A stretch of DNA of 64,000 nucleotides, from assembly GCA_951813565.1 (NCBI GenBank), contig OX638351.1:3410492-3474491 (forward strand), in the 5' to 3' direction. The notes beneath the pieces are model-generated. The model was given only the letters and a program-made list of their open reading frames with translations. It was not told the DNA's origin and ran no database searches. Of this stretch, positions 7,407-54,821 are shown one piece after another. Position 1 is the first letter of the stretch. Every line of letters begins with the position of its first letter. Source of the DNA: an uncultured Poribacteria bacterium (lineage in GTDB: Bacteria > Poribacteria > WGA-4E > WGA-3G). Both the position numbers and the translations under genes were made by a program.

Positions 7407-7740
7407 GGGGTGTGTAAAGTTTTTGTAGAAATCCGCACAACTCCTATTGTAGGGGCGGGTCTCCGGGAATGCCAAAAGGCATTCGGACCGTTGATTTCTT
7501 GATTTGGTGCCTGCCCGTTGCATGGCACTTCCTGCGCAGTGGCGGGGCACCAAATCAACGGTATGAATGCCTTATGACATTCCCCGGGACCCCGCCCTAC
7601 AGTGGACGCCGCGTAATCATTGCAAATTGAACCTATGTAACCAAATATTTACACACCCACACAAGAGTGCTTCTTGACAATTGAATGCCTCTGTCCTACA
7701 ATAAGGCACAGTCATTTTTGTACAAAAACTTTACACACCC
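7407..7740. repeat. MITE-like palindromic repeat, family A (two adjacent or nested copies)
   Basis: Ends are GGGTGTGTAAA...TTTACACACCC. The GC-rich palindromic core GGGCGGGTC(T/C)CCGGGAATGCC...GGCATTCCCCGGGACCCCGCCC recurs at 16578..16733, 35688..36146 and 51589..51688. Partial copies lie at 38761..38826 and 40124..40190. Confidence 0.8.
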
Positions 7741-16577: not shown

Positions 16578-16733
16578 GGGTGTGTAAATATTTGGTTACA
16601 TAGATTCAATTTGCAATGATTACGCGGCGTTTCCACTGTAGGGCGGGGTCCCGGGGAATGCCTTAAGGCATTCCCCGGAGACCCGCCCCTACAATAGGAG
16701 TTGTGCGGATTTCTACAAAAACTTTACACACCC
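16578..16733. repeat. MITE-like repeat, family A (compact, near-perfect palindrome)
   Basis: GGGTGTGTAAATATTTGG...GGGCGGGGTCCCGGGGAATGCCTTAAGGCATTCCCCGGAGACCCGCCCC...AAACTTTACACACCC. Confidence 0.85.
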
Positions 16734-16813: not shown

Positions 16814-19800
16814 ATGAGAATTAAATATTATATCGTAATAAATTTACTTGTCTTTCTATGCTGTGTTTCGTTCGGTTATGCAGCAGAAGGCAAAAAAACG
16901 TTAGGGTTGTCGGAAGCTGCAATCCAAATACGAGATCAACTTTCTATCCGTAACATTAGAAAAGACCTTGCACGCTTATCAAGTCTTGAAAGCCGCGTTA
17001 CAGGTTATCCGCAAGCAGCAAATGGAAGTAAATATATTTTTGACCGTTTCGTTGAAATGGGATTGAAGAATGTTGAAAGTCGTGAATTTACTGTCACAGT
17101 TCCTATTGATTATGGTAATAGTGCTATTGACATCCTTTCTGCTGATGGTACGGTGCAACACACGTTCCCACTCAAACCGTTGTGGCCGAACCTTGTCCGA
17201 ACATCCCTTCTTGCCGATGGTGTCAAACATACTGTTGAAGCAGGAGAAACCCTCGAAAAAATCGCAGAAAACTACGCTGTCCCGCTAACAACTATTGCAG
17301 AAAACCCACACAACCAATATTTACCTACACCTGTTGTGGAGGGGAACACGGTTTTCATACCAACTGGCGGTCTTACCGGGCCCTTATTTTACGGAGACGA
17401 TGCCCAACTTGCAGATTTCAACGGAAGTAAAGTCGGCGGCTTTTGGTACAGGCTCCAAGAAGGTGATACACTGGCTTCACTAGCGAGACGTTATCGCGTT
17501 ACGAAAGCGAGTATAACCGATGATGTTCTCAATGGACATCTGCAGAAAGCTTCCGATGGCATTGATAACAATGAAGATGGTACTGTGGATGAATATGGCG
17601 AAATTCCGCTGTTATCAGAGATTCTTGGATGGGCGACAGATGGCATTGACAACGATGCTGATGGTTGGACAGACGAAATTCCCGGCGATGCCACAGATGG
17701 TGTTGATAATAACAAAGACGGCCGGATTGACGAGACAGGCGAATTCATCGCCGCAAGCGAATCCGATATCTTTATCCCCAAAGGCGCGATCGTTCTTGCC
17801 GAGTTTAATTCGGGTACCCGATGGATCAACGCTGCCATGCTTGGTGCCTCCGCTGTTATTTTTATCGAACCAGAAACAACAATCCGAGGCGAAGCAGAAA
17901 ACAAATTCCTCACTGTACCAGCCAACATTCCCCGATTTTGGATTTCTAATACAGATGCTGTTCAATTAAAAGATTTTCTTGCCACAGGTGAAGAGGTCAA
18001 TGTTCGCTTGCGCGGTAAAATGAAATGGGAACGACGCGTCGGTCAAAACATTCGTGGCTTTTTAGAAGGTGGCGATCCTGTCCTACGCGATGAACTAGTC
18101 GTCGTTACCGCATATTACGATTCTATGTCAGTCGTACCGGCAATTGCCCCTGGTGCTGACCCAACTTGTGGGATTGCTGTCCTAATGGAGCTTGCACGTC
18201 TGTTCGGACAACCGCAATACCGCCCTGGTCGTTCAGTACTATTTGTTGCTGTTGACGCGCATTTCCAAGGTTTAGCTGGCATGCGCGCATTTATGGAAGG
18301 TATTGGACAAGATATTGTCGGGTCAGCAACTGATTCCCCTGGAACCCCTACTTTGCAAGGGTTAAGAAGGGGTTTGTCAAATGATATTATCGAGTTTGAA
18401 GAATTAGGACGCAAACTATTACTTTCCATTGATCGGAGTATTTTGGTTGACTTGGACGCGGATTTTTACCACGGCGTGCACGGGATAAAAGAAGACCTTG
18501 AATCGCTCTCCACAACGTTGACAGGACTCTCTACAACCCGTTCTCAAATTGATTGGTTACACAGAGCGCAACGAGATTTCTCAGAACGCCAGAAAAAACA
18601 GGTGGATCGCAACCGAAAACGCGAAAAACAGGGATTCACAGAGGAAGAAAAATCAAGACTCGAAGCGAATCTCGTTCGGTTTGAAAAAGAAGCATTGCAA
18701 ACGACACACTTCCTTCGCGAGATTGTTAACCGACTGGGACAGATTCGGACATCCGCCTTGAAAACGAGTAAGGATGCTCAACGAGAACTCATTGAAACTA
18801 TCGCATTGCCTATTGCACGATTAGACACATGGGCAGTGGATAGGCTGATGCGCGAACTTGAATCAGGCGAGATAGATGACCGATACGACACGCATCCAAA
18901 CGCATCATACCTGTTACCGATGAAGGATGGAACCGATTATGAAGTGCCAACACCTGACGATCTACCACCAGAATTATTATCCGAAATTGAACAATTGAAC
19001 AAGACTCTTGCCAATTGGGAGATGAGTGATCAGCGTAAATTTGCTTTGATGTGGACACCTGACAAAATACTTGACCGCCACTTAGATTTGCCGACTCTCA
19101 GAAAAGCGAGAGATGCACGAAAGACCCTTGCAAACACAACTGAATCTAAGGAAGATGCCATACCACGAGAGCGAGTACTTCTGGAAAAAATAAAGGAAAA
19201 TCTCAAGGACACCGCTACCATTGAAAATCAAATTAAAGAAGCTATTACGAAATTGAGCAGTGATCGTGAGCACGATCTTCCACCTGAAGTATTAACGCAA
19301 TATCTAACTGAAGCATCACAAGAACGGATTAATAGAATTGATGATCAACTCCAGCAACGTTTGACCGAAGCAACTTCAGCATCTGTGGTAGGTGAAGCTG
19401 GAGATGGTTCATCTGAAAATATTCTAATTGAGGATTTGGCACGCGATAAGCAAGGCATTTTTGAAATTGCACTGCGGAATGCCCGTTTAGAACGGACGCG
19501 TATCCAGTATCTCCTTGATTCCCATGAAACCCTCACACGTGAGTTTCTTGATGAGGAGTTGCTAATTCTGAAAAGTTATCTTTCAGGTGAGGAGGTTGCA
19601 CAAGCAAAAGAGGCACGCAAACATATTGCCGCCTATCTGGTTGAAGCCGAAATCCTACAAGCAGTCAAACAGAACGCAGCTTCAGATGTGATCGCTCTTG
19701 AAAATCTAATCAAGCAGCTCCCATCGCTAACAAGGGATATAGATGCACAAACGAAGGTGCTTCTTCGCGATAATATGCTCACGCTAAGGAATGCGCGATT

Positions 19801-22800
19801 CCGAAACATTCAGAGCAGAGTTGAGAAGATGTCGCGCATAAGCGAGATAGAATATAATCGCAAACTCGCTCAGATTGAAGCCGCAGTTGCACTACAAGAC
19901 CTATTCAACCGATACTATACCTCTCTTTTCTGTAGCATTGACCTTTCCTCTCAATCGAATCAGTTCGGTGTATTTAACAAAGGATGGTTTTATGACCAAC
20001 AACCGGAATTTGTGTTACGGCGAGAGTTCGCGAGTATTGGCAATAAACTCGCTGCTTATGCAGCTGATGCTGATTTCGGTGTCCGCGTGAGGAAATTATG
20101 GCGAGCAACAGACGATCAGATTCGTCAAGCGGTTATGGCGCGACAGTGGTCAGTGGCAAGTCAGATTTCTGATAAGGCAGACCTTGAAGGGAAAACGCTT
20201 GAGACTCTGCTTAGCGCACACTATGGTAAACTCACAGGTTTAGGCGGTGTTAGCCGACTCATGAAGATGCAGTTTGAGCAGTGGCGAAACCGAGGTGAAC
20301 CGTCTGAAGATATGCTTAAGGATATGGACTATATCCGCAAAGAGGTAGAACGGTTTATCCGAAACGATGTGCGCAGCGCAAAGAAAAACCGAAAAAACAG
20401 TATCCGCATGCGTGAACAGTTAGACGCTATGCTAAGACTCCGGCACGAAGACCCCGACACATTTACTGAAGATGAGATAGAGGACATTAAAACATTAATC
20501 TCAATTGTAGGATTGGGCGGCGGTAGTAACTTTGTCAATGCAATTTCCGCGAGTGGTGGAAAAACGTGGAAAACCTATATCCCAGGGAAAATCGCCTTTG
20601 ATAGTGAGGTCGCAACACTTGTTGGTAAAACAGGCATCGCCTTTGCAACGATTGAAGACGCGCGCGTCCTTACCGATACACCGCTTGATACGATTGATCG
20701 CGTTGATCTACGTGAAGATGGCAATCTACATCAACAAGCAAAAACATTGGCATCTCTACTGATACAAGCGCTACGCGATCCACAGATGCCCACTGCAGCA
20801 CGCGTTGGAAACTTTTATTGTAACCTTTTCGGTGATGTAGTTGAATTCGATGCCCGTGAATCTGCGTTGCCAAATAAACCTGTACCATATCCGATTGTAA
20901 CGCTTCGCCGAAAACACAAAACTATGATGGGGGTACGCGGTGACTTATTCGCCATGGGCGATAATAAAGGTAATTTTGAAGTCGCTGGGTTGGCAATGGA
21001 AGGCAGAGCGACTCGCAGACTTGGTGGTGCGCAAGAAGTAGAGGCATATATCCTTGACTCCGATTCTGGGGATATTGTCTACGCTCCCGATTTAGGGAAT
21101 TACGGTGCTAAACTGCTACCGAATAAAGTGCCGATCAACACACGGCGACGGGGATGTCGGGTTGTCACTTTCCCGTGTGTATCCACAACTATCTATGATT
21201 TAGTTGACCAGCGCTATCTCCGTACCTTACGCGAATTAGAGGTGTATGATGCGTTATCCGATAGCCCACCCGAAAAATTCGGCGTGTCTAAACCGTGGCA
21301 GCAGGAAGGTGTTTCTGCAGCTGAACCGATCGCGCTTGTCTATAGCGAACCGCAAAGCCGTATAAAAATTGGGATGGCGTACGGACAAATCGGTAAACGT
21401 CTACTTCTTATTAAAGCGACCAAAAGCGGTATGAAAAATCCAACGCTTTACACTGGCGAAGGGTTTGTAGTCCGTGAAAACGGCAGTATCCGTCTCACGC
21501 CTTATGTTGTTGTACGCGATATGTGGTGGCTTGATGAGAATCGGTCTCGCCTTTACAAACGGTTCGGTATATCCAGTGATCGGCTTGATAAGTTGCATCA
21601 ATTTGCCAATGAATATCTCTCACGAGCAGAAACTGCACTTTTCCAAAACGACTACCAGCAGGCGCTGAAGTTGGCACGTGCTGCATGGGGATACGAATCA
21701 CGCGCCTATCCGGATGTAAAAAGAACTGGGAACGATGTCGTTAACGGCATTATGTTCTACCTTGCGCTCTTGATGCCGTTTGCCTACTTTATGGAACGGC
21801 TTATATTCGGTTTCCCAAACATTCACAAACAGATTTTAGCCACTTTTGGCATTTTCCTCCTTGTCTTTTACTTCTTAAGTCAGGTGCATCCAGCGTTCCA
21901 GATAACAACAACGCCCATAATTATCTTAATTGCCTTCATTGTTCTTGCGTTGACTGTGCTTGTCATCAGCATTATCGTTAGGAAATTTGAGGAACAACTT
22001 GAAAAGATACGTCAGCAGGGCAATAAGGTGTATAAAGCCGATGTCGGTAGGTTGAGCGCAAGTGCTGCAGCATTTAGCCTCGGTATCTCCAATATGCGGA
22101 AACGCAAAGGACGAACTATTCTTACGTGCGCCACATTGGTTATTCTCACGTTTACTGTCATCTCGTTTACATCGGTGCGGACGTTTATGCGTCCTAACCG
22201 AACCAGTTTGCCACAAGTTACACCGCGTTATACAGGCTTACTCATTCGCGATCAGTATTGGCGTCCTCTTGAAGAACCTATCCTTAACTCAATTCTAAAC
22301 GATATGCAGAAGACGCAAATTACTGTAAATGATTTAGAACGACTTCTGGAACAGAAAAATCTAATTCTTGCAAAGCAAGGGCAAACGCCACTGGATATAC
22401 CTGCAGCAATTGCAGGATTGCAGGAAAGTGGGTTTATCAAAAATGTTGACGAAGAACCGATTCTCGCTGTTCAAAATGTTGTCGCGCCACGCGCATGGTA
22501 CCAGTCCTCTGGAACAGGGGATCAATCTTTTGTACAACTGACGCGAAGCCCGAACACACAAGACACTGCACCACCGACACGCCCGCTCACAGGTGAACCG
22601 TTGAGCTTCGCCGCAAACATGCTTGTTGGCATGAGTGAGTCGGAACCCGCAGTCACTGGTATTGATCGCTATCTCCAATATGGAAAATGGTTTAATCGTG
22701 ATGATGCTGACAATTGGCCAACCGAGTGGCCCTACGCAATCGTTCTTCCGAAAGGGATGGCAGATCTTTTGAAACTAACCGAAAGTGATATGGGGAAAGC

Positions 22801-24097
22801 GACAATCTCTGTTTATGGTGCTGATTTTACCGTTGTCGGTGTTTTGGGGATAGGATTCAAGGATTTGACTGATAACGATGGCGAAGAAATGACACCTGTA
22901 GATTACCAATTGATGCAGCAGCAACAGAGTAGAGGTGGCACAGGCGATGAAACGCTTGAGGGGGAACTTCAAAAATATCTCCATCTCACCCCAGATAGCA
23001 TTGCAGTTTTGCCTTATGAAGTTGTCATGAACCAAGGCGGAACACTTAGAAGCGTTGCAGTCAACATGGAACCTCAAGAGAACGATCCGAAACTATTAGG
23101 TGCAATTGATAAACTTGATCTTATCATGGCACCGCTGATGAACCGCATTGCGCTTGACTTTTTTGTTGGACGCGACAAAGATACCTATCTTTATAGCAGT
23201 ATTGGTATGACCAGTTTTAGCGGCATGGGCAACCTATTTGTGCCAATTCTGATTGCTGCGTTGATTGTTCTAAATACCATGCTCGGTGCAGTTTATGAGC
23301 GCGTCCGCGAAATAAGCATTTACAGTTCTGTTGGACTCGCGCCTATCCATATCGCTTTCCTCTTCCTTGCCGAAGCGTGTGTATATGCGATTGTTGGCGC
23401 TGTTTTAGGGTATCTAATGGGACAGGTGATCGCAACAACATTGGTGCATTTCGGTTGGCTCGCGGGCTTAACGCTAAACTATTCTTCAATGTCTACAGTC
23501 GTGGCGACAGTTATTGTGATGATTGTGGTGCTGCTCAGTACGCTTTACCCTGCTATAAAAGCATCCCGCATGGCAGTGCCAGATATTGAACGAAAATGGA
23601 AGTTGCCTGAACCTGAAGGCGATATATGGCATTTCAATCTACCGTTTACCGTTTTAGCGGAAGAAGCACTTGGCTTGAACGTCTTTATGCGCGATTATTT
23701 TGATGCACATGCCGATGAGTCTGCCAGCGATTTCTATACAGACAACGTTACTTTCAGTTCTGCTGAAGAGGATTCTTATGAGATTGGGATGATGGTCTGG
23801 TTAGCGCCTTACGATTTAGGTGTAAGTCAATCTATCCAATTTATCACTTCGCCTGTCGGTGGAGAAGAAGAAGACCTTTTCAAAATCACATTAGATGTGC
23901 ACCGCGAAAGTGGTGAGATAGCGTCATGGAAACGTGTCAATCGTCGTTTCCTCAATTTGTTGCGAAAACAGTTGCTGATATGGCGAACCTTCAGCGTTGA
24001 TATCCGCTCAGAATTCCATGAACGGGGTAGAACCGAAAGCACTGATACGCCAGAGGGTACCGGGCAATTGGATCCCGTCGTGGCACCGGCGGATTAG
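16814..24097 (+). CDS. giant (2427 aa) multidomain envelope protein: signal/TM - 2x LysM - TSP3-like Ca-binding repeats - PA domain - M28-peptidase-like (apparently degenerate) domain - coiled coils - C-terminal MacB/FtsX-type permease module
   Basis: LysM: HTVEAGETLEKIAENYAVPLTTIAEN and YRLQEGDTLASLARRYRVTKASI. Ca-binding repeats: DGIDNNEDGTVDEYGE / DGIDNDADGWTDE / DGVDNNKDGRIDETGE. PA plus M28-like: VVTAYYDSMSV...GADPTCGIAVLMELARLF...VLFVAVDAHFQGLAGMRAF, with the usual His/Asp/Glu-Glu zinc-ligand positions appearing substituted. C-terminus contains TM RTILTCATLVILTFTVISF, then a roughly 350-aa loop, then FtsX-like 3-TM LIAALIVLNTMLGAVYERVREISIYSSVGLAPIHIAFLFLAEACVYAIVGAVLGYLMG. Confidence 0.85.
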   Translation: MRIKYYIVINLLVFLCCVSFGYAAEGKKTLGLSEAAIQIRDQLSIRNIRKDLARLSSLESRVTGYPQAANGSKYIFDRFVEMGLKNVESREFTVTVPIDYGNSAIDILSADGTVQHTFPLKPLWPNLVRTSLLADGVKHTVEAGETLEKIAENYAVPLTTIAENPHNQYLPTPVVEGNTVFIPTGGLTGPLFYGDDAQLADFNGSKVGGFWYRLQEGDTLASLARRYRVTKASITDDVLNGHLQKASDGIDNNEDGTVDEYGEIPLLSEILGWATDGIDNDADGWTDEIPGDATDGVDNNKDGRIDETGEFIAASESDIFIPKGAIVLAEFNSGTRWINAAMLGASAVIFIEPETTIRGEAENKFLTVPANIPRFWISNTDAVQLKDFLATGEEVNVRLRGKMKWERRVGQNIRGFLEGGDPVLRDELVVVTAYYDSMSVVPAIAPGADPTCGIAVLMELARLFGQPQYRPGRSVLFVAVDAHFQGLAGMRAFMEGIGQDIVGSATDSPGTPTLQGLRRGLSNDIIEFEELGRKLLLSIDRSILVDLDADFYHGVHGIKEDLESLSTTLTGLSTTRSQIDWLHRAQRDFSERQKKQVDRNRKREKQGFTEEEKSRLEANLVRFEKEALQTTHFLREIVNRLGQIRTSALKTSKDAQRELIETIALPIARLDTWAVDRLMRELESGEIDDRYDTHPNASYLLPMKDGTDYEVPTPDDLPPELLSEIEQLNKTLANWEMSDQRKFALMWTPDKILDRHLDLPTLRKARDARKTLANTTESKEDAIPRERVLLEKIKENLKDTATIENQIKEAITKLSSDREHDLPPEVLTQYLTEASQERINRIDDQLQQRLTEATSASVVGEAGDGSSENILIEDLARDKQGIFEIALRNARLERTRIQYLLDSHETLTREFLDEELLILKSYLSGEEVAQAKEARKHIAAYLVEAEILQAVKQNAASDVIALENLIKQLPSLTRDIDAQTKVLLRDNMLTLRNARFRNIQSRVEKMSRISEIEYNRKLAQIEAAVALQDLFNRYYTSLFCSIDLSSQSNQFGVFNKGWFYDQQPEFVLRREFASIGNKLAAYAADADFGVRVRKLWRATDDQIRQAVMARQWSVASQISDKADLEGKTLETLLSAHYGKLTGLGGVSRLMKMQFEQWRNRGEPSEDMLKDMDYIRKEVERFIRNDVRSAKKNRKNSIRMREQLDAMLRLRHEDPDTFTEDEIEDIKTLISIVGLGGGSNFVNAISASGGKTWKTYIPGKIAFDSEVATLVGKTGIAFATIEDARVLTDTPLDTIDRVDLREDGNLHQQAKTLASLLIQALRDPQMPTAARVGNFYCNLFGDVVEFDARESALPNKPVPYPIVTLRRKHKTMMGVRGDLFAMGDNKGNFEVAGLAMEGRATRRLGGAQEVEAYILDSDSGDIVYAPDLGNYGAKLLPNKVPINTRRRGCRVVTFPCVSTTIYDLVDQRYLRTLRELEVYDALSDSPPEKFGVSKPWQQEGVSAAEPIALVYSEPQSRIKIGMAYGQIGKRLLLIKATKSGMKNPTLYTGEGFVVRENGSIRLTPYVVVRDMWWLDENRSRLYKRFGISSDRLDKLHQFANEYLSRAETALFQNDYQQALKLARAAWGYESRAYPDVKRTGNDVVNGIMFYLALLMPFAYFMERLIFGFPNIHKQILATFGIFLLVFYFLSQVHPAFQITTTPIIILIAFIVLALTVLVISIIVRKFEEQLEKIRQQGNKVYKADVGRLSASAAAFSLGISNMRKRKGRTILTCATLVILTFTVISFTSVRTFMRPNRTSLPQVTPRYTGLLIRDQYWRPLEEPILNSILNDMQKTQITVNDLERLLEQKNLILAKQGQTPLDIPAAIAGLQESGFIKNVDEEPILAVQNVVAPRAWYQSSGTGDQSFVQLTRSPNTQDTAPPTRPLTGEPLSFAANMLVGMSESEPAVTGIDRYLQYGKWFNRDDADNWPTEWPYAIVLPKGMADLLKLTESDMGKATISVYGADFTVVGVLGIGFKDLTDNDGEEMTPVDYQLMQQQQSRGGTGDETLEGELQKYLHLTPDSIAVLPYEVVMNQGGTLRSVAVNMEPQENDPKLLGAIDKLDLIMAPLMNRIALDFFVGRDKDTYLYSSIGMTSFSGMGNLFVPILIAALIVLNTMLGAVYERVREISIYSSVGLAPIHIAFLFLAEACVYAIVGAVLGYLMGQVIATTLVHFGWLAGLTLNYSSMSTVVATVIVMIVVLLSTLYPAIKASRMAVPDIERKWKLPEPEGDIWHFNLPFTVLAEEALGLNVFMRDYFDAHADESASDFYTDNVTFSSAEEDSYEIGMMVWLAPYDLGVSQSIQFITSPVGGEEEDLFKITLDVHRESGEIASWKRVNRRFLNLLRKQLLIWRTFSVDIRSEFHERGRTESTDTPEGTGQLDPVVAPAD

Positions 24098-26430: not shown

Positions 26431-27378
26431 ATGGACTGGACTCTTTTTGGTTGGGCAGGCATTCAGTTAGAGATACCGACAACTTGGGAAATCAGTGGTA
26501 TCAGCGGCGATGAGAAGAACGGTTACCTTCGGTTAGATGACGCTGAGATGCCTCGGTTAGAACTCAAATGGGCAAAGACACGGAAAAAGAAACCTGACCT
26601 ACACAAAACACTCGACGAATACTTCAAGTTAGTCCGTAAAAACTACAAACGCGGTGGTAATGTCTCATTTCGTAGGAACGTTGACCTTATTAAAGACGAG
26701 GATTTTTTAAAAGGTCACACTGTCCTTGGTTTTAGTTGGAAGGGAGGTATCCGCGCAAATGGATTGATCATCCATAGTCCCGATACTAAACGGATCACCA
26801 TTGTCCAAGTCATGGGACGGCTCAAAGAAAACTGGCGTCCTACGGTACTACGCATCTTTCAATCTATTTCGGACCAAGGAGACCCGAAAAACACCGTCTG
26901 GAGTGCGTATGGACTGAGGCTTGCTGTTCCGAAAAACTATAAGTTAGAAAGCCAGAAACTTCTCAGCGGATATCTATTGTTTGCATTTACAAGAGGTAAA
27001 AGTCGTAAACTTAGTATTGAACGCTACGGTCCTGCGGAGGTGTTATTAAACGAATTTAGTTCAGAACCGAATCCTTTAGAGACTTGGTTTCGGGCGCGCT
27101 ACGCTAAAGCGATTCGTGGTTATGGGTTTGAAGTGACACCACATGAAGAGCACGGAGACGAACGCATCACGTTTGTCGGACAGCAGACACGACTTTACGA
27201 TAGTATGCCATTTTCACCCTTACTAGTACTTGATAAACTCCGAAAACGGGTAAGACTTACGTTTTTTATTTGGCATTGTTATCATACCAACCGTATCTAT
27301 GTGGTGCAATCAATTGGACGCCATGAGACCTCTGAGAAACTTGCACAAGAGGTCGCAAAAAGTATTCACTGCCACTAA
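26431..27378 (+). CDS. hypothetical protein (315 aa)
   Basis: Protein-like ORF 30 nt downstream of the membrane protein. No recognisable motif. Confidence 0.5.
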   Translation: MDWTLFGWAGIQLEIPTTWEISGISGDEKNGYLRLDDAEMPRLELKWAKTRKKKPDLHKTLDEYFKLVRKNYKRGGNVSFRRNVDLIKDEDFLKGHTVLGFSWKGGIRANGLIIHSPDTKRITIVQVMGRLKENWRPTVLRIFQSISDQGDPKNTVWSAYGLRLAVPKNYKLESQKLLSGYLLFAFTRGKSRKLSIERYGPAEVLLNEFSSEPNPLETWFRARYAKAIRGYGFEVTPHEEHGDERITFVGQQTRLYDSMPFSPLLVLDKLRKRVRLTFFIWHCYHTNRIYVVQSIGRHETSEKLAQEVAKSIHCH

Positions 27379-27547
27379 GATTGAGATAGTGAATATTCAA
27401 TAATAGTCAGAACAACATCAATTGACCCTTAAGGGTATATGAAAAAAGAAACAGAGATACTCAATTTTTTTGACATTCCGGTTGAACACTTTCCCGATAG
27501 AAGTGTCAGATGGTTGTTCCAAGACAAGGAGAATGTCCGAGGGTTGT

Positions 27548-28913
27548 TAGCACTCCCCGTCAAACCCCCTGCCTTTAGGTAGGGGATGTCCACGGCGAAA
27601 GTTTTGATTTAAAATATACTTTTCAATCTAATCACAATGTGGTATAATATATCATACTATAGTGTAACTCTTGAAGTGATAAAAGACTATATTGAAGGTC
27701 AAAGTGGTCAATGAGAAAATCTCACAAGTTCAAACTTCAACACCAATCTAACACAATCAAACTTGGTAATATGCTTGATGATATGTGGGAAATCCATCTA
27801 CATATCATGCGTTTGGCACGTAGGTATTATCGCATGTTCGGCAAAAATTTGTCTGCGTATCGTCTGAAGGCACACGTCACAAAACTTAAAAAGACAACTA
27901 AACCGCATTGGGCAGCCTTGCCGAGCCAAGTTGTGCAAGACATTGTGCTGCATGGTAAATCTCAAGACGCTTTCTTTGAGAATATCGAAGACCGAAAAGC
28001 GGGCAAAACAACGCGTAAAGTGGATAGACCGAAAATCAAACCGCGCCACAAATACAACGCCATGACCTTCACACAAGCAGGCTACAAACTTGAAGGGAAC
28101 CGTATCAAAATCAACTGTATAGATACATGGTTTTCCTTTCACAAACACCGTGAAATCAAAGGTGTCATCAAGACGATAACGATCAAACGTGACAGGTGCG
28201 GTGACTATTGGATATGCTTTTCGTGTGAGAATGTTGACGATTCCGAACCCAAACCCAAGAGGGGTAAGAGCGCAGGATTTGATTATGGAAACAAAACATT
28301 CCTCACAAGCGACGAAGGGGACACAATAGAATCCCCGCAGTTTTTCAAACAATCACTCAACACGTTGCGATCTCTCAACAAAGCACTCAGTCGTAAAGTC
28401 AAAGGTTCTAACAACTATTATCGTGCGTGCCGTGCTTTGGCAAGGCAACACAGAAAGGTTGCCCGACAAAGAGAAGATTGGCAATGGAAACTTGCCTCAA
28501 AACTTTGTGTAGAGTTTGACACACTCATTTTTGAAACGCTGAACCTTGACGGTATGAAACGATTATGGGGACGTAAAGTTTCTGACCATTCTTTCTACCA
28601 GTTTCTTCAGATATTGGAACAGAAGTGTGCCAAACACGGCAAAAAACTTGTGCAAATCTCTCAATGGATAGCAACAACAAAACCTTGTAGTGATTGTGGA
28701 TACCCTAACAAAGAACTCTCTCTTTCTGATAGGCAGTGGACATGCCCCAAATGTGGCTCACACCACGACAGAGACATCAATGCTGCTATCAATATCAAAC
28801 AGGCAGGCTTGGCTGCCTAAAGTGGAGCGACAATAAGACGGTGGACGCTAAGCGAAAACCGCAGTCGCAAGGAAGCACAAGCCCCTACCTTTAGGTAGTG
28901 GGTACCTATGACA
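27548..28913 (+). mobile_element. IS200/IS605-family TnpB-only insertion element (IS1341-like), copy 1
   Basis: Left end hairpin CCCCCTGCCTTTAGGTAGGGG. TnpB ORF in between. Right end GCCCCTACCTTTAGGTAGTGGGTACCTATGACA, the region expected to encode the omega/reRNA. Roughly 96% identical to the inverted copy at 59351..60720. No tnpA. Confidence 0.85.
27711..28820 (+). CDS. tnpB: TnpB (OrfB) RuvC-like RNA-guided nuclease of IS200/IS605 family
   Basis: 369 aa. C-terminal zinc finger CSDCG...C.KCG and RuvC-III ...DRDINAAINI. Typical TnpB N-terminus MRKSHKFKL.... Confidence 0.9.
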   Translation: MRKSHKFKLQHQSNTIKLGNMLDDMWEIHLHIMRLARRYYRMFGKNLSAYRLKAHVTKLKKTTKPHWAALPSQVVQDIVLHGKSQDAFFENIEDRKAGKTTRKVDRPKIKPRHKYNAMTFTQAGYKLEGNRIKINCIDTWFSFHKHREIKGVIKTITIKRDRCGDYWICFSCENVDDSEPKPKRGKSAGFDYGNKTFLTSDEGDTIESPQFFKQSLNTLRSLNKALSRKVKGSNNYYRACRALARQHRKVARQREDWQWKLASKLCVEFDTLIFETLNLDGMKRLWGRKVSDHSFYQFLQILEQKCAKHGKKLVQISQWIATTKPCSDCGYPNKELSLSDRQWTCPKCGSHHDRDINAAINIKQAGLAA

Positions 28914-28929
28914 AATTCTCTCAAGTGAG

Positions 28930-29847
28930 TTGGTGGAATTGATTGATTTTAGCCAACTTACACAAATTAACAGGAGTTTTATTCCAAACACGCTTCGCGA
29001 ACAAGAGTCTGACATCGTTTTTAGCGTCCCTTTTCAACACGAATCGAAAACTAACGAGATACTTATCTATATTCTCATTGAACACCAATCAACAGTTGAT
29101 GTTACAATGGGATTTCGATTGTTGTTTTACATGACGCAGATATGGGATTTTCAACGTAGGGAGTGGGAATCGAACAATGTTTCCAAAAGTGAGCGGCGTT
29201 TTCGCCCAATCCTTCCGATTGTGTATTACACTGGCGCGCAGCAGTGGAAAACACCGTTGACTCTTGAGGCGATAATGGACATTCCTGATGTGCTTGCTCG
29301 CTTTGTCCCAAAATTTGATTCTTTGTTTCTAAGCGTAAAAGAAACAGATGAAGTGGATCTAACGAAAACTGGTCATCCATTGGGATGGTTGTTAACTGTA
29401 CTTCAAAAGGAACATGCAGACAAGGAAGCGATAAGTAGTGCGTTGCTTGAAGCTATATCTCACATTAACGCTCTTGATGAAGAACAAGCACAGCAGCGAC
29501 GGAGAGCAATTATCTATTTCTTGTTGTTGATATTGCATCGTCGTCCGGCTAAAGAACACGAAGATTTGATAGCACTTATTGACCAACATACACACGAGTT
29601 GGAGGTAGAAACCATGGCAAAATCAATGGCAGACGTTCTCAGAGAACAAGGTATTGAACAAGGCCAAACACGGGCAAAACAGGAGGCAGTACTTAAGCTC
29701 CTACAAATTCAATTTGGTGATGTGCCTGAGGATGTTTCTAAAAGAATTACTTCTATCCGTAGTATCTCAAGTCTTGATTCGCTCTTTGAGAAAACGGCTA
29801 CCGTTCAAACACTTGATGAAATTGATTGGCAAAACTATAATGACTAA
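28930..29847 (+). pseudogene. Rpn/YhgA-like recombination-promoting nuclease (PD-(D/E)XK, with C-terminal DUF4351), probably 5'-truncated by the TnpB element
   Basis: ILIYILIEHQSTVDVTMGFRLLFYMTQIW core of the YhgA-like family. DUF4351-like C-terminus VLKLLQIQFGDVPEDVSKRI. Lacks about 25 N-terminal residues typical of the family. In-frame upstream sequence is IS right-end DNA, with a stop at 28909. Confidence 0.6.
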
Positions 29848-35552: not shown

Positions 35553-35687
35553 TTGAATTCTCCTTAGTTTCGCGGCACCCGAAGTAGCATATCTGTTTGT
35601 CTGTCGGATGCCATTCTATTATAATTAGATGTAGTTTAGCATATACGATTAAATTCGTCAAGTGATTTACGTTTGCTGGGTATGTAA

Positions 35688-36146
35688 ATATTTGGTTACA
35701 TAGGTTCAATTTGCAATGATTACGCGGCGTTTTCCACTGTAGAGCGGGGTCCCTGTGCCCCATAGCCGTCAATTTAAGGATATACCCTCTTGTGGGAGCG
35801 AATCAACGCAGCATGCGCGTTTGGCATGCTGCCAAATCAACGCCAAATGCGCTTTTTGGCATTTGTCCAAATCAACGCAGCATGCGCGTTTGGCATGCTG
35901 CGGGTTTTCAATCCCGATAAATACATATAAATCGGGCTTATAAAGCCCTCCCACAAGAGGCAATCTGGTAATTGTGTGCTTAAATTGACGCCTATGGGCG
36001 GGGTCCCTGTGCCCCGCCACTGCGCAGGACGTGCCATGCAACGGGCAGGCACCAAATCAACGGTCCGAATGCCTTTTGGCATTCCCCGGAGACCCGCCCC
36101 TACAATAGGAGTTGTGCGGATTTCTACAAAAACTTTACACACCCCC
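35688..36146. repeat. composite MITE: family A element carrying a nested family-C-like insert
   Basis: Outer ends GGGTATGTAAATATTTGG...AAACTTTACACACCC. Internal CTTGTGGGAGCGAATCAACGCAGCATGCGCGTTTGGCATGCTG direct repeats and a CCCTCCCACAAGAGG inverted partner. Confidence 0.75.
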
Positions 36147-38703: not shown

Positions 38704-39122
38704 CTTGTGCCTCCTCTTTATATAGAGTAGGTTAATTGTTTTGACAGACTACAGAAATAGGTGGGGAATGCCTAAAGGCGAATGCGCCAAATCAACGGTC
38801 CGAATGCCCTTTGGCATTCCCCGTCCAGCATTCGCCATGATTCATACCGTTGGTTAGGTATTTGTACAGTTTTAACTATCCCTGTAGAGGTCGCTGGTCT
38901 CTAAAGTGCATTGACACTTCAGAAGGTCTATGCTAAAATAGACACCAGCGCTGTCAGACTATTCCTGGCAGTGCTTCGCATCGGCAGTGATCGGTTCACT
39001 GTCGGTGCATCTAAAAAGCACCTCCGACGTAATCCACGCAAGGCGGATTTTTTTAACGTCTATTATAGTAGATATTGAAAATAAGTTTACATTTTCTGGG
39101 ATTTATGCTAGCCTTTATAATT

Positions 39123-44699: not shown

Positions 44700-47246
44700 T
44701 TAGGGATTTACATTCCAGATGAGGACAGTACCATCGTCACTTCTACTGCCGAGGGATTTCCCATCTGGACTGAACGCGATACTTCTAACCCAAGCTGTAT
44801 GACCGGTCAGTGTTTTCTTGTGCTTACCGGTATGTGGGTCCCATAAGTTGATGTTACTCTCAAAACCACCGCTTGCAAGTGTTTTGCCATCTGAACTAAA
44901 CGCTAAATCAAACACACGATGCGTCGGTTTGGTGATCTTCATCTTGGTTTGCGCAGTATCAATATCCCACAAGAGGATGATTTCGCCACCCCCGATTGCG
45001 AGGGTCTTACCATCTGGACTGAACGCGAGTCCGCACCAAGCACTATCTATCCGCCAATCTACAATATCATTTCGCAACGCATTATCCAAATCAAGTATAT
45101 TCTTTATCTCACCAGTATCTGTATCCCATACGGGAATAGTATTATCTTCACTACTTGTGGTAGCGACAAATCTACTATCCGGACTAAATGCTATAGCAAA
45201 AATATCTTTTTGATGACTGGATAGGACAAACTTCTCTTCACCTGTGAACATATCGCATAATCTGAGCAGATTGTCATCTAATGCAATTGCGAGTGTATTT
45301 CCGACGGGACTGAGTTTCAAACTATGGTTATGCCATTCATATTTCGTCGGTAACATTTTGCGCTCACCTGTGTTTGCATCCCATAAGTGCATACAATACT
45401 CACCCGATTCACCACCATCTCCCCATGCAAGTATTTTTCCATCAGGGATACACTTAAGATTTTGTATTTCACCGTTTAACATCGGATCCCTAAACTCATT
45501 GTCCGTTTTGATGAGTTCTCCTGTGTGTGCATCCCATACACGGATAGTACCATAGCCATAAGCAACTGTAACAGTCTGTCCATTAGAAGTGAAAGCAAAA
45601 GATTCCGTAGATCCGTTATGTCCATTGATAGCATAGTCTTTCGGGTTACCTGTATGTGCATCCCAGAAGCGGATGAGACCATCGCCTCTTCCACTCGCAA
45701 GTGTTTTTCCATCCGGACTAAATGCTAAACTGTAAAAGTCTGATTTGTGTTCTGTAAGTGTTAGTTTACCTTCACCTGTATGTGCGTCCCAAAGACGAAT
45801 TTTATTTTCTCCGTGTGAAGAACTCGCAAGGGTATTACCGTCAGGATTAAACGCTAAGCGTTTAACAGCCCCTGAATGTCCAGAGAGCTTAATCTTCAAT
45901 TCGCCTGTATTTAAGTCGTTAATGTAAATACTATTGTCTTCCTCTGTTAAAGCATTGCTGACAGCAAATGTATTCCCAACAAGATTGCATGCAATTCTAT
46001 GTTCATAATTAGTTGGCTCTGAAATTGTTTGCTTGTGTTTTCCTGTGATCACATTCCAGAGTGAGATTTCTGCGTCCATACTGCCACAATAAATAGTCTC
46101 TCCATCCAGACCGAATGCCAAGTCTTTGATTATTCCAGAATAATCTTTAGTGAGTGTATTCTTAAGTTCACCAGTGACTGCATCACAAATATGGATAGTA
46201 TTTCGATATCCGCACGCAAGGGTTTTTCCATCTGGACTGAATGCCAGACCTGGTGCCCTAATTGTAAAAGAACTTAAGGTCTTATCCGTTGGCTCAATAA
46301 CTTTTTTATAGGAACTTGTTCTTCTATCCCATAATAGAATTGTACCATCCATACTTCCACTGGCTATGGTGCATCCATCCGGACTGAATGCAACGCTGGA
46401 AACTTCACTCTGATGCTCAGTTAGCAGAGAGATTTCTTTATGGGTTTTCACATCGTAGAGCCAAATACCGATACTACTTGCAACTGCCAGAATTGTACCA
46501 TCGGGAGAATACTGTAGCTCCTGTATCGTACCTTTTCCGAGACGTGCTTTAGCATCTTTAGGCAGGTTCCATTGCATAGAATCTTGTGTTAAGTTGTTTT
46601 CCATTGTTTTGATTCCTTTTGGTAAACCAAGGTCTTTGTTCCTATCAGAGATAGTACTACTTCTAATTTGATATAACAAATCAGGTATTGTTTCTATGTC
46701 AACAATAATTCGTAGACGATTTCGAGCACGTTGAAGTCTACTTTTGACAGTGTTCGGAGACACACTCAAAAACTTTCCAATCGCTTCACAACTCATTTCT
46801 CCGAGGTAGTGGAGGATTATCACCGTGCGTTCGCTCTCCGATAGCATTTCCAGAAGATAATCTACTATTTCACGACGAAACTCAGCAGATGCTTCTTCAC
46901 GCTGTTCTGCAATATAATTGGCAAAAGCGGTTTTTTCGAGTGCCTCTTCACTAATGGTTTCCAGTGATTGCATCGCCAGTTTCTTCTTTCGAAACCATGC
47001 TGTGCAACGTCGGTCAGCGATAACATAGAGCCATCCTATAAACTGACTTGGATTTTCCAGCGAAGCAAGTTTTTTGTGCGCTTGAACGAAAGTGTCTTGT
47101 GTAATTTCTTCAGCGATGTGGAAATCACCGATTTTCCGCCATGCAAAAGCATGGATACGTTTTTGGTGTTTTCTGAACAAATCGCTGAAAGCATCTTCGT
47201 CACCAGACAGTATATTTTGAATTAGTTCAATGTCGTCTCTTTCCAT
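44700..47246 (-). CDS. ECF sigma factor domain fused to a WD40 beta-propeller (no TM segment)
   Basis: N-terminal 190 aa is an ECF sigma: region 2 ITQDTFVQAHKKL...FIGWLYVIADRRC and region 4 LSESERTVIILHYLGEMSCEAIGKFLSVSPNTVKSRLQRAR. More than 12 WD40 repeats follow, starting with the LPKDAKARLGKG motif. Confidence 0.85.
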   Translation of the reverse strand: MERDDIELIQNILSGDEDAFSDLFRKHQKRIHAFAWRKIGDFHIAEEITQDTFVQAHKKLASLENPSQFIGWLYVIADRRCTAWFRKKKLAMQSLETISEEALEKTAFANYIAEQREEASAEFRREIVDYLLEMLSESERTVIILHYLGEMSCEAIGKFLSVSPNTVKSRLQRARNRLRIIVDIETIPDLLYQIRSSTISDRNKDLGLPKGIKTMENNLTQDSMQWNLPKDAKARLGKGTIQELQYSPDGTILAVASSIGIWLYDVKTHKEISLLTEHQSEVSSVAFSPDGCTIASGSMDGTILLWDRRTSSYKKVIEPTDKTLSSFTIRAPGLAFSPDGKTLACGYRNTIHICDAVTGELKNTLTKDYSGIIKDLAFGLDGETIYCGSMDAEISLWNVITGKHKQTISEPTNYEHRIACNLVGNTFAVSNALTEEDNSIYINDLNTGELKIKLSGHSGAVKRLAFNPDGNTLASSSHGENKIRLWDAHTGEGKLTLTEHKSDFYSLAFSPDGKTLASGRGDGLIRFWDAHTGNPKDYAINGHNGSTESFAFTSNGQTVTVAYGYGTIRVWDAHTGELIKTDNEFRDPMLNGEIQNLKCIPDGKILAWGDGGESGEYCMHLWDANTGERKMLPTKYEWHNHSLKLSPVGNTLAIALDDNLLRLCDMFTGEEKFVLSSHQKDIFAIAFSPDSRFVATTSSEDNTIPVWDTDTGEIKNILDLDNALRNDIVDWRIDSAWCGLAFSPDGKTLAIGGGEIILLWDIDTAQTKMKITKPTHRVFDLAFSSDGKTLASGGFESNINLWDPHTGKHKKTLTGHTAWVRSIAFSPDGKSLGSRSDDGTVLIWNVNP

Positions 47247-47285
47247 CAGAAACCTCCATAATCAATTTATGCTTACAATAATAGG

Positions 47286-47315
47286 TGACGCGATTTTACT
47301 GTGGATGGGTTGCAA
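47286..47315 (-). promoter_or_regulatory. conserved upstream motif, candidate ECF-type promoter (TTGCAACC-N15-CGCGTCA in gene orientation)
   Basis: The same motif with identical spacing is found upstream of the paralogs ending at 50220 (motif 50261..50290) and 51410 (motif 51450..51479). Flanking sequence ATTTTTGCAACC...GTAAAATCGCGTCA.CT.TTATTGTAAGCAT is conserved in all three. Confidence 0.45.
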
Positions 47316-47508
47316 AAATGCAATAATTCAAAATATTGAATTCTTACACAAAATCATAAGAAAAGTTTTTTAGTAAAATCTATAATTACTTTTATACTTT
47401 GGTAGGTGCGGTTTCCCAACCGCACTTACCAGTGATGCGACATATTTTAGATTTTACTATAAGTTCTATGGATTGAAACAAACAGTGTTAACTGTGAGGT
47501 AAGTGATG

Positions 47509-50220: not shown

Positions 50221-50393
50221 CAGAGAACTCCCATAATCAATTTAGACTTGCAATAATAGGTGACGCGACTTTACAATGGATGGGTTGCAAAAATGTCATA
50301 ATTCAAAAAATACTGAATTCTTACACTAAATCATAAGTAAAGTTATAAGTTCTATGGATTGAAAAAATAACGTTTACTGTGGAGTAAGTATTG

Positions 50394-51410: not shown

Positions 51411-51837
51411 AAGAGACCTCCATCGTCAATTCATGCTTACAATAACAGATGACGCGATTTTACACGCAACAGGTTGCAAAAATGTCATAATTCGGAAAGA
51501 ATAGGATTCTTACATTAATACTACAGTCTATCTCATAAATCGTTAAATACGTTTCCTTACACAGGTTCTACATTCATCGTAGGGGCGGGTCCCTGTGCCC
51601 GCCCATTGTTTCCACTTATGAGAGAGATGGCGAGGCACCAAATCAACGGTCCGAATGCCTTATGGCATTCCCCGGGACCTCGCCCTACAAATGATTTATG
51701 AGATACGCTCTATTAGGATTTACGCACAAATTTGGAGCACACGGTAAATAAACGGACATCGCTAAAAAGCGTACAATAAATTGTGTTACTACAATAGCCG
51801 CTAAGACTGTATAAGTCTATAAAGTTTGTTCAATTGT

Positions 51838-53733: not shown

Positions 53734-53941
53734 TACATCTCTCCTTTGCTTTTATAGTAAATTCGAAAATATGTGAATACTTTACGATAAATGTGGTTTT
53801 ACAATGTTCAATTTTAGGTCTGGTAGGAGCGGTTTCCTAACCGTTTCCACCGGGGAGTGTCCACATTTTTTTAGATTTCACTATAATTAATTTGAATTTA
53901 TAAGATGGAATCCATCTCCTCTAATGTCTTTAGAGATTGGT

Positions 53942-54640: not shown

Positions 54641-54821
54641 ATCTTCATTCTCCTTAGAATTGGAACGAACAGAGTATTAGTTCTTATCTTTGTAGATGTT
54701 AAGACATCATTATCGCATTAATTCAATTTATTTTCGTATTCTTAAATTCGCTGTGTCCACCATATAAATACATCCATGGATGCACTTTTAGCGAGTTTTG
54801 CATGAAAACAGATACCATGCT

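What the first reader, a model, noticed from the sequence alone, without database searches (positions are those of the whole stretch)
27548..28913. Two near-identical TnpB-only (tnpA-less) IS200/IS605-type elements with conserved hairpin ends: active OMEGA-type mobile elements
Copies at 27548-28913 (+) and 59351-60720 (-) share about 95% nucleotide identity across the TnpB ORF, the left-end hairpin (CCCCCTGCCTTTAGGTAGGGG) and the right end (GGTAGTGGGTACCTATGACA). They diverge exactly at those boundaries, which defines the element ends.

Neither copy carries the Y1 transposase TnpA, so mobility must be supplied in trans, or TnpB-guided homing maintains them. The 3' end of the ORF plus the right end should encode the omega (reRNA) guide.

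Copy 1 appears to have inserted into an Rpn/YhgA-like nuclease gene, removing its first 25 or so codons. Copy 2 sits in the WD40 array.
Basis: partly seen in the sequence, partly recalled or inferred. Interest (0 to 1): 0.5.

Follow-up and report, generated by a model that had tools for sequence, protein, structure and literature searches.

The report
Two tnpA-deleted IS605-family transposon copies
The window, from a sponge-symbiont Poribacteria genome, holds two copies of an ordinary IS605-type insertion sequence that lost its transposase gene but keeps an intact RNA-guided nuclease (TnpB); relatives show that one TnpB residue changes together with the DNA motif the element inserts next to.

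Summary
The two copies are real, but identity is 92%, not 95%.

An orthologous empty site in a related Poribacteria contig reads TTAG|AAAT. So copy 1 inserted 3' of TTAG with no target duplication. It split an Rpn gene inside codon 38 and removed no codons.

Both copies carry intact tnpB (D191/E275/D355, zinc finger, dN/dS 0.15), IS608-like subterminal hairpins and an omega-RNA-like 3' structure with strong covariation.

They are deletion derivatives, not a primary TnpB-only type. Twenty of 80 related Poribacteria loci carry a 139-aa Y1 TnpA upstream of tnpB, and the window copies keep its last 16 codons. The same deletion junction occurs at five or more different TTAG sites, which implies mobilisation in trans.

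Across about 70 independent insertions, three things change together: the fourth target base (A/G), the LE guide base (T/C) and TnpB residue 53 (Asn/Lys). Residue 53 aligns with ISDra2 S56, a contact of the -1 TAM base.

Verdict: a new member of a known kind. Current activity is unproven.

The parts
27547..27550 (+). Target / left cleavage site (CL) and predicted TAM TTAG of copy 1. This is host DNA, not element.
   Evidence: The empty site in orthologous locus L081 reads ...GGGTTATTAG|AAATTCTC. The family left flanks are TTAA or TTAG.
27551..28912 (+). Copy 1 of the element, 1362 bp (CACTCCCC...CCTATGAC).
27562..27565 (+). LE guide tetranucleotide GL (AAAC), the 4 nt 5' of the hairpin foot. 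It pairs with CL TTAG in the IS608 manner.
   Evidence: Covariation of TTAA with AAAT and TTAG with AAAC over 72 insertions, Fisher p 1.7e-18. IS608 rule from PMC3201880.
27566..27585 (+). LE subterminal imperfect palindrome (CCCCTGCC TTTA GGTAGGGG), enclosed by an outer stem CCGT/ACGG (27557-27560 / 27592-27595).
   Evidence: Compensatory variants occur in relatives, e.g. CGGTGTC...GACACCG.
27620..27648 (+). Promoter-like site TTTTCA-17 nt-TATAAT with a TG extension. In full-length relatives it is the tnpA promoter; here the deletion fuses it to tnpB.
27664..27714 (+). Remnant of tnpA: the last 16 codons VTLEVIKDYIEGQSGQ plus a stop that overlaps the tnpB ATG (ATGA).
   Evidence: tblastn with L004 TnpA; alignments. 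The deletion corresponds to L087 2477-2867.
27711..28820 (+). tnpB, 369 aa, intact. RuvC residues D191, E275, D355; CxxC...CxxC zinc finger.
   Evidence: Pfam OrfB_IS605 plus Cas12f1-like_TNB. ISDra2 TnpB structures match at E 4e-41. Residues located. dN/dS 0.15.
27867..27869 (+). Codon 53 (Lys), aligned with ISDra2 S56. It covaries with the last TAM base: Lys with G, Asn with A.
   Evidence: PMC10097598
28801..28912 (+). Minimal omega-RNA-like scaffold. It has a hairpin over the tnpB stop codon, a long central three-tier stem and the RE hairpin.
   Evidence: 97% of cells are paired against 33-39% in slid controls. 157 cells have both-side changes against 1-13.
28882..28902 (+). RE subterminal imperfect palindrome with a bulged T (28899). 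GR CAAG lies at 28878-28881.
28909..28912 (+). Right cleavage site / transposon-encoded motif TGAC. It ends 10 nt 3' of the hairpin foot, as in IS608.
   Evidence: The family RE ends are TATGAC, ATTGAC or CTTGAC, followed by variable sequence. IS608 geometry.
28913..28928 (+). Predicted guide of the copy 1 omega RNA (AAATTCTCTCAAGTGA). It is host DNA, the Rpn gene. The 16-nt length is assumed by analogy.
   Evidence: Inference from the ISDra2/Gst TnpB mechanism (PMC8612924; bioRxiv 10.1101/2023.03.14.532601).
27439..27550 (+). 5' fragment of the interrupted Rpn/YhgA (Transposase_31) gene: codons 1-37 plus the first base of codon 38.
28913..29847 (+). 3' fragment of the interrupted Rpn gene.
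59352..60716 (-). Copy 2 of the element, 1365 bp, with the same tnpA deletion junction as copy 1.
60717..60720 (-). Target/TAM TTAG of copy 2 (host DNA).
59444..60556 (-). tnpB of copy 2, 370 aa, intact. D192/E276/D356; K53 at 60398-60400.
60553..60603 (-). tnpA remnant of copy 2 (16 codons plus stop).
59352..59463 (-). Omega-RNA-like scaffold of copy 2. It has the same fold as copy 1. The apical stem is CUC/GAG where copy 1 has CGC/GCG.
59336..59351 (-). Predicted guide of the copy 2 omega RNA (ATATTCAAATTAACCG); intergenic host DNA.
   Evidence: inference, as for copy 1

Best explanation
Both copies are non-autonomous members of an IS605-type (tnpA-tnpB) insertion-sequence family that is multi-copy in Candidatus Poribacteria.

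Origin. An ancestor lost about 391 bp, from the tnpA 5' UTR to tnpA codon 122 or so. That fused the tnpA promoter to the last 16 tnpA codons and to tnpB. This derivative then spread to new sites.

Mobility (inferred). It follows the IS608 'peel and paste' single-strand pathway. A Y1 HUH TnpA, supplied in trans by a full-length relative, binds the LE and RE hairpins. It cleaves 3' of the flanking TTAG, which is read by the LE guide AAAC, and 3' of the element's terminal TGAC. It re-inserts the single-strand circle 3' of another TTAG without target duplication.

Retention (inferred). tnpB and the overlapping 3' RNA form an RNA-guided nuclease. The RNA is a scaffold of at least 112 nt ending at the RE, followed by about 16 nt of flank. 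The nuclease recognises TAM TTAG plus the flank sequence, which is the empty donor joint. Cutting it lets recombination with a sister copy restore the element.

Shown here: exact ends, the empty site, no target duplication, the TTAG target, guide/target covariation, intact catalytic residues, purifying selection, RNA-structure covariation, TnpA-bearing relatives, and multiple sites for the deleted form.

Not shown: transcription of the RNA, nuclease activity, and a TnpA source in this particular genome.
For: Ends and empty site. Intact orthologous and paralogous Rpn proteins read ...RGLLEILASELVELIDF, matching only the TTAG|...GAC| reconstruction. The Pfam Transposase_31 match extends from profile positions 30-199 to 4-199.

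TnpB: Pfam; ISDra2 TnpB structures at E 4e-41; D-E-D and zinc finger in both copies, and 65 of 75 family ORFs are intact with the motifs; dS 0.30, dN 0.046.

TnpA: the 139-aa ORF in L004/L027 hits Y1_Tnp at 3.6e-40. It is near-full in 20 of 80 loci. L087 is a full element with the same TTAG, the same AAAC and the same LE hairpin; its RE hairpin has the same stem and one loop base different.

Spread of the deleted form: the same deletion junction is seen in three metagenome contigs, each with a different flank and each preceded by TTAG.

Guide/target covariation: A:T 46, G:C 25, 1 exception in the 2x2 table (a second, TTAT/AAAC, lies outside it); p 1.7e-18; all 69 flanks tested are distinct.

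Geometry: CR lies 10 nt 3' of the RE hairpin foot and GL directly 5' of the LE foot, as in IS608.

Omega-RNA structure.

Presence/absence: L081 (87% identical, syntenic) is empty. L082 and L083 (99.6-99.8% identical) carry the same insertion.
Against: No TnpA gene in the 64-kb window, and the rest of the genome could not be searched. The two copies are old relative to each other (dS 0.30). The same copy 1 insertion is fixed in the two near-identical assemblies, so no recent movement is documented in this population. Copy 1 has a weakened outer LE stem (AG to CC). No Rfam family matches the RNA, and there is no expression evidence. The RE hairpin covariation could reflect the DNA hairpin that TnpA needs rather than RNA.
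Confidence: 0.85

Rival explanations
1. The copies are immobile relics in this genome. No compatible TnpA is present, so they persist only by vertical descent, perhaps helped by TnpB-mediated homing between sister chromosomes.
For: No TnpA in the window. dS 0.30 between the copies. The copy 1 insertion is shared by the 99.6-99.8% identical assemblies L082 and L083. The copy 1 outer LE stem is weakened.
Against: Both ORFs are intact and under purifying selection. Hairpins, GL/CL pairing and CR are all intact. The same deletion derivative sits at five or more sites. Full-length elements with the same LE hairpin and a near-identical RE hairpin exist in the phylum. 139-aa TnpA homologues are abundant: 1657 proteins at E <= 1e-30.
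Confidence: 0.25
2. Segmental duplication of a host region that happens to include a tnpB gene.
For: None beyond the presence of two copies.
Against: Identity ends sharply at hairpin-bearing ends. The flanks are unrelated. An orthologous empty site shows precise insertion. About 70 further copies sit at unrelated sites with the same ends.
Confidence: 0.01
3. A domesticated TnpB used by the host with a fixed guide, for example as a TldR-like RNA-guided repressor, rather than a transposon nuclease.
For: Strong purifying selection in copies that lack tnpA.
Against: The RuvC D-E-D triad is intact in both copies. Transposon ends and target motif are intact. The 3' flanks (guides) differ at every site. 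The element is multi-copy and mobile across genomes.
Confidence: 0.03
4. An IS607-type element mobilised by a serine recombinase.
For: TnpB also occurs in IS607 elements.
Against: Full-length relatives carry a Y1_Tnp, not a serine recombinase. The target is AT-rich TTAR and the ends carry IS608-like hairpins.
Confidence: 0.01

Closest known systems
IS608 (Helicobacter pylori), IS200/IS605 family, IS605 group
   Same: The full-length relatives have the same tnpA (Y1 HUH) - tnpB organisation. There are no inverted repeats and no target duplication. Insertion is 3' of a tetranucleotide (TTAC there, TTAR here). A 4-nt guide 5' of the LE hairpin foot pairs with the target in the same pattern: AAAG/TTAC there, AAAC/TTAG or AAAT/TTAA here. 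The right cleavage site lies 10 nt 3' of the RE hairpin foot. The RE hairpin has a bulged T.
   Different: CL lies 15-16 nt from the LE foot rather than 19 nt. The target sequence and CR differ (TGAC against TCAA). tnpA and tnpB overlap (ATGA) on the same strand. The window copies lack tnpA.
ISDra2 (Deinococcus radiodurans) TnpB-omega RNA (PDB 8H1J, 8BF8, 8EXA)
   Same: It is the closest solved TnpB (E 4e-41 over residues 28-368). The D-E-D and zinc-finger residues align. The guide RNA scaffold overlaps the tnpB 3' end and RE. The TAM equals the transposon's target.
   Different: The TAM is TTGAT against a predicted TTAG. The protein is 369 aa against 408 aa. The RNA sequence is unrelated and no Rfam match was found. 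The residue aligned with S56 is Lys or Asn here.
IS1341-type (tnpB-only) and Geobacillus ISGst non-autonomous elements (Meers et al. 2023)
   Same: The elements carry only tnpB and are predicted to be mobilised in trans by a TnpA that recognises shared ends. About 25% of family members carry tnpA, both here (20/80) and in their survey. TnpB is expected to act in donor-site retention.
   Different: The window copies are demonstrably recent deletion derivatives that keep a tnpA remnant and the tnpA promoter. A separate class of about 1405 bp in the same family has a leader not derived from tnpA.

Membership tests
IS200/IS605 family (IS605 group) | Y1 HUH transposase TnpA | tested here: met
   Not present in the window copies, which keep only a 16-codon remnant. 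Present in 20 of 80 family loci: 139 aa, Pfam Y1_Tnp 3.6e-40, HVH and YIEGQ motifs.
IS200/IS605 family (IS605 group) | TnpB with the OrfB_IS605 RuvC fold, zinc ribbon and D-E-D triad | tested here: met
IS200/IS605 family (IS605 group) | No terminal inverted repeats; subterminal imperfect hairpins at both ends on the same strand | tested here: met
   Stems keep pairing through compensatory changes.
IS200/IS605 family (IS605 group) | Insertion 3' of a short conserved motif without target-site duplication | tested here: met
   Empty site L081 TTAG|AAAT against the filled window. TTAA or TTAG flanks 71 of 74 aligned family copies.
IS200/IS605 family (IS605 group) | Cleavage/target site read by a DNA guide 5' of the LE hairpin | tested here: met
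   Flank base against guide base: 46 A:T, 25 G:C, 1 exception in the 2x2 table, p 1.7e-18, independent flanks.
IS200/IS605 family (IS605 group) | Single-strand excision and integration catalysed by TnpA | not testable with these tools
   Needs an excision assay.
OMEGA system (TnpB plus omega/reRNA) | Structured RNA overlapping the tnpB 3' end and RE, ending at the transposon boundary | tested here: met
   28 pairs, 97% paired, 11 pairs with double changes, controls far lower. Only the structure was tested, not expression.
OMEGA system (TnpB plus omega/reRNA) | RNA-guided, TAM-dependent DNA cleavage | not testable with these tools
   Catalytic residues are intact, but activity was not measured.
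Curated Rfam RNA families | Match to a curated covariance model | tested here: not met
   No hit at gathering threshold in the window. Only chance-level hits at E 1.9-6.8 in 28500-28960.
IS1341 group (primary tnpB-only elements) | Element encodes tnpB only | tested here: inconclusive
   The gene content fits. However, the copies retain a tnpA remnant and the tnpA promoter, so they are IS605-type deletion derivatives.
TldR (nuclease-dead TnpB repressors) | Loss of RuvC catalytic residues | tested here: not met
   D191/E275/D355 are present.

The most novel reading that the evidence does not exclude
Within this one family, target choice by TnpA and TAM reading by TnpB appear to have been re-tuned together by paired point changes. 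TnpA's target is set by one base of the LE DNA guide (T or C). TnpB's TAM reading would be set by residue 53 (Asn or Lys), the position aligned with ISDra2 S56 that touches the -1 TAM base. TTAA elements have guide AAAT and Asn53. TTAG elements have guide AAAC and Lys53.

Both synonymous codons occur within each class. Sites lying between the LE tip and codon 53 are much less associated with the class. The class needs 12-15 changes on tnpB trees. If causal, this is a natural single-residue TAM switch (Asn for A, Lys for G) that keeps the nuclease matched to the transposase's DNA-encoded target.
Probability: 0.55. Interest if true: 0.5.

Novelty: new member of a known kind. Interest (0 to 1): 0.3.

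Why it matters
As a genome feature it is routine. IS605-family elements that lack tnpA are the commonest context of tnpB, and their biology is established: Karvelis 2021, Altae-Tran 2021, Meers 2023.

Three things have modest value.

1. It documents an abundant IS605 family in Poribacteria. The full-text search found no paper mentioning both Poribacteria and TnpB. The ends are defined to the nucleotide and an empty site is in hand.

2. It catches the step from autonomous to non-autonomous element. The deletion fuses the tnpA promoter to tnpB, and the derivative then spread.

3. The coupled variation of target base, LE guide base and TnpB residue 53 gives a concrete, testable rule for the -1 TAM position. 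This could help TAM engineering of compact TnpB editors. It also illustrates, at single-base resolution, the TnpA/TnpB co-evolution that reviews describe only at family level (PMC13565253).

Tried and rejected
- Exact look-up of the copy 1 TnpB in the assembly index found nothing on record.
- A fuzzy-regex search for ends over all loci timed out.
- blastn-short with the window LE found the LE in only 8 loci, which wrongly suggested that most relatives lack it. Iterated nhmmer recovered it in 74.
- A regex-based LE locator gave false starts in about 20 loci. A second regex for the TAM table was wrong. Both were replaced by column-based counts on a MAFFT alignment.
- Two other junction reconstructions were rejected: TT|...GACA| and TTAGC|...AAT|. 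They give an Rpn protein one residue short and without the conserved Glu.
- Rfam searches at gathering and at E-value threshold gave no meaningful match.
- PATE-like derivatives (ends only) were considered. The hairpin core occurs only at the four element ends in the window.
- The short dispersed repeats found by self-blast are a different, TIR-bearing family.
Full report
OBSERVATION. Aligning 27248-29213 (+) with the reverse complement of 59051-61020 shows a block of high identity with abrupt loss on both sides. Within the exact ends the copies share 1257 of 1365 positions (92.1%). By segment: LE 160/165, ORF 1015/1113, RE 87/93. The 300-nt flanks align at chance level. Divergence is patchy: 2 mismatches per 100 nt at the left end and at ORF nt 740-840, and up to 19 per 100 nt elsewhere. 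This suggests mosaicism by recombination among family copies. The hairpin core CCTTTAGGTAG occurs only at the four element ends in the window.

WHAT THE GENES ARE. Both ORFs (27711-28820 +, 369 aa; 59444-60556 -, 370 aa) hit Pfam OrfB_IS605 and Cas12f1-like_TNB. They match the solved ISDra2 TnpB structures at E 4e-41 over residues 28-368. The RuvC triad (D191, E275, D355 in copy 1) and the CxxC...CxxC zinc finger are present in both copies. Between the copies dS = 0.30, dN = 0.046 and dN/dS = 0.15. Both proteins have therefore been under purifying selection since they diverged, and the two copies are not recent duplicates of each other.

SOURCE AND FAMILY. A scan of one genome per species found 162 related stretches. 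The best 80 (74-88% aa identity) all come from Candidatus Poribacteria or uncultured sponge-associated MAGs. Several copies occur per genome: 7 in OX639973.1 and 5 in OZ253447.1 among those kept. Of 75 full-length matches, 66 ORFs are intact and 65 keep the catalytic motifs.

EXACT ENDS AND THE EMPTY SITE. Upstream of copy 1 an ATG at 27439 opens a frame reading MKKETEILNFFDIPVEHFPDRSVRWLFQDKENVRGLL. This is the missing N-terminus of the Rpn/YhgA (Transposase_31) ORF that resumes after the element.
- Only one junction restores a protein colinear with intact homologues: flank ...TTAG | element CAC...GAC | flank AAAT.... The homologues read ...RGLLEILASELVELIDF in P0001, P0002 and P0005-P0016.
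- With that junction the Pfam match grows from profile positions 30-199 to 4-199.
- P0001 lies on a Logan contig (L081) that is syntenic with the window: a 315-aa gene, Rpn, PqqD, ABC ATPase, SelA-like, metallo-beta-lactamase. It is 87% identical in DNA.
- Its sequence at the site is ...GGGTTATTAG|AAATTCTCGC.... The window reads ...GGGTTGTTAG|[1362 bp]|AAATTCTCTC....
- So copy 1 is 27551-28912, inserted 3' of TTAG inside codon 38, with no duplication and no loss of host bases.
- Two assemblies 99.6-99.8% identical to the window (L082 from GCA_021295735.1, and L083) begin inside the RE and show the same right junction.
- By the same criteria copy 2 is 59352-60716 (-), also preceded by TTAG. It lies between two WD40 genes.

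ENDS ACROSS THE FAMILY.
- Iterated nhmmer plus MAFFT recovered the LE in 74 loci.
- The flank immediately 5' of the element is TTAA or TTAG in 71 of the 74 aligned copies; 72 of these, the two window copies and 70 related loci, passed the filter for the alignment. The remaining three are TTTA.
- The RE always ends in TGAC (TATGAC 41, ATTGAC 18, CTTGAC 14), followed by unrelated sequence.
- The LE has a hairpin (CCCCTGCC TTTA GGTAGGGG in the window) inside an outer stem. The RE has a hairpin with a bulged T. Both keep pairing through compensatory changes in relatives.
- The four bases 5' of the LE hairpin foot are AAAT in elements flanked by TTAA and AAAC in elements flanked by TTAG. The counts are 46 and 25, with one exception in the 2x2 table (a second, TTAT/AAAC, lies outside it); Fisher p = 1.7e-18.
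- All 69 left flanks tested are mutually unrelated, so these are independent insertions.
- This is the IS608 rule. There, the target and left cleavage site TTAC is read by the guide AAAG 5' of the hairpin foot, and the right cleavage site lies 10 nt 3' of the RE hairpin foot (PMC3201880). Here TGAC also ends 10 nt 3' of the foot, and CL lies 15-16 nt 5' of the LE foot.

TNPA.
- About a quarter of the family (20 of 80 loci) has 552 nt rather than about 200 nt between the LE tip and the tnpB ATG. That stretch holds a 139-aa ORF (L004 3585-4004) that is a Y1 HUH transposase: Pfam Y1_Tnp 3.6e-40, HVH, YIEGQ. Its stop overlaps the tnpB start.
- More than 1,600 homologues at E <= 1e-30 exist in public data, and all but one of the 120 listed are 139 aa.
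- The window contains no TnpA. What remains at 27664-27714 and 60553-60603 is the last 16 codons (VTLEVIKDYIEGQSGQ) and the stop.
- Alignment with full-length elements shows a deletion of about 391 bp, corresponding to L087 2477-2867. It joins the region just downstream of the tnpA promoter to tnpA codon 122 or so. That promoter is TTTTCA-17-TGgTATAAT at 27620-27648, and TTGACA in L004.
- L087 is a full element with TTAG, the AAAC guide and the same LE hairpin. Its RE hairpin has the same stem and differs by one loop base. It is therefore a plausible type of trans-acting partner.
- Both window copies share the same deletion junction. An exact search for that junction found three further metagenome contigs, each with a different left flank ending in TTAG. 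The deleted form has therefore occupied at least five sites, which requires mobilisation after it lost tnpA.
- Other loci (L006, L073, L079) show independent partial tnpA deletions.
- The commonest class, about 1405 bp, has a leader of about 100 nt that is not derived from tnpA.

THE RNA.
- No Rfam family matches.
- RNAalifold on 78 family sequences covering the last 220 nt of the element predicts three features. One is a hairpin over the tnpB stop codon. The second is a long central stem (outer GCGAC/GUCGC, inner CGGU/ACCG, apical 3 bp). The third is the RE hairpin.
- Both window copies fold this way on their own. They differ in the apical stem by a compensatory change, CGC/GCG against CUC/GAG.
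- Counted on the alignment, 97% of cells pair, against 33-39% when partners are slid. 157 cells carry changes on both sides, against 1-13. The covariation score is 0.249, against 0.046 or less. 11 of 28 pairs show double changes, four of them in the outer central stem.
- The RE hairpin could owe its conservation to the DNA form that TnpA binds. The central stem is better explained by an RNA scaffold.
- Transcription and the length of the guide are inferred from ISDra2 and Geobacillus TnpB (PMC8612924; bioRxiv 10.1101/2023.03.14.532601).

A COUPLED PROTEIN CHANGE.
- I asked whether TnpB differs between TTAA and TTAG elements. One column stands out. Residue 53 is Asn in 40 of 41 TTAA elements and Lys in 24 of 25 TTAG elements (98.5% fit). 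The next best columns, 57 and 50, reach only 82-83%.
- At nucleotide level the signal is a sharp peak at the third base of codon 53. Both synonymous codons occur within each class: AAT 23-24 and AAC 16 for Asn, AAA 14-15 and AAG 9 for Lys. The amino acid is therefore what is kept.
- ORF sites between the LE and codon 53 are less associated, which argues against simple linkage.
- On neighbour-joining trees of tnpB the class needs 12-15 changes, against about 20 for random labels.
- In both the single-sequence and the profile alignment to ISDra2-type TnpB, residue 53 aligns with S56. In the cryo-EM structure S56, with Y52, contacts the -1 TAM nucleobase (PMC10097598).
- Lys with G and Asn with A fit common protein-DNA contacts; this last point is from my own knowledge.
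- The analysis is not phylogeny-corrected and the contact is inferred by alignment. I therefore rate a causal reading at about 0.55.

COMPARISON AND VERDICT.
- The element works like IS608 for transposition and like ISDra2 or ISGst TnpB for donor-site homing. It passes every testable membership criterion of the IS200/IS605 family.
- The tnpB-only state is secondary. That most tnpB genes lack a nearby tnpA (about 25% have one) and are thought to be moved in trans is already described (bioRxiv 10.1101/2023.03.14.532601). Co-evolution of TAM and transposase target is described at family level (PMC13565253).
- The feature is therefore a new member of a known kind.
The identity figure, both ends, the TAM and the supposed loss of Rpn codons are corrected. 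'Active' remains unproven for this genome.

Noticed in passing
window 16578-16733; 7408-7658; 35677-36145; fragments at 51628-51690 and 38784-38855: A separate MITE-like dispersed repeat, 88-97% identical between copies. It has 19-nt terminal inverted repeats (GGGTGTGTAAA...TTTACACACCC) and a long central palindrome (TGTAGGGCGGGGTCCC...GGGACCCCGCCCTACA). It also occurs on metagenome contig L085. It is unrelated to the TnpB element.
   Followed up: partly
window 35801-35901: Three tandem units of 32-35 nt (AATCAACGCAGCATGCGCGTTTGGCATGCTGC), each with an internal palindrome, lie inside the largest MITE-like copy.
   Followed up: no
L002, L036, L001, L033 and about 40 other loci, 200 nt upstream of tnpB: The commonest family class, about 1405 bp, has a leader of about 100 nt between the promoter and tnpB. 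It is not derived from tnpA and looks self-complementary. Its origin and role are unknown.
   Followed up: no
window 27551-28912 against 59352-60716: Divergence between the copies is mosaic. The LE plus the first 80 nt of tnpB, and ORF nt 740-840, are 98% identical. Other stretches are 81-90% identical. The tnpA remnant, which no longer codes for anything, differs at one base only. This suggests gene conversion among family copies or constraint on the tnpB 5' leader.
   Followed up: partly
L071 868-2004 (-); L057 276-892 (+): A second, distantly related tnpB (46-50% aa identity) lies within 3 kb of the family copy. Poribacteria therefore carry several TnpB lineages.
   Followed up: no
window 44700-62856 (-): A run of large paralogous WD40/beta-propeller genes (631-903 aa), 65-81% identical to each other in parts. 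A 2427-aa ORF lies at 16814-24097.
   Followed up: no
window 28930-29847: Gene callers in the near-identical assemblies annotate the 3' Rpn fragment as a complete 304-308-aa protein starting at an internal TTG/GTG (P0003, P0004). This is an annotation artefact of the insertion.
   Followed up: yes
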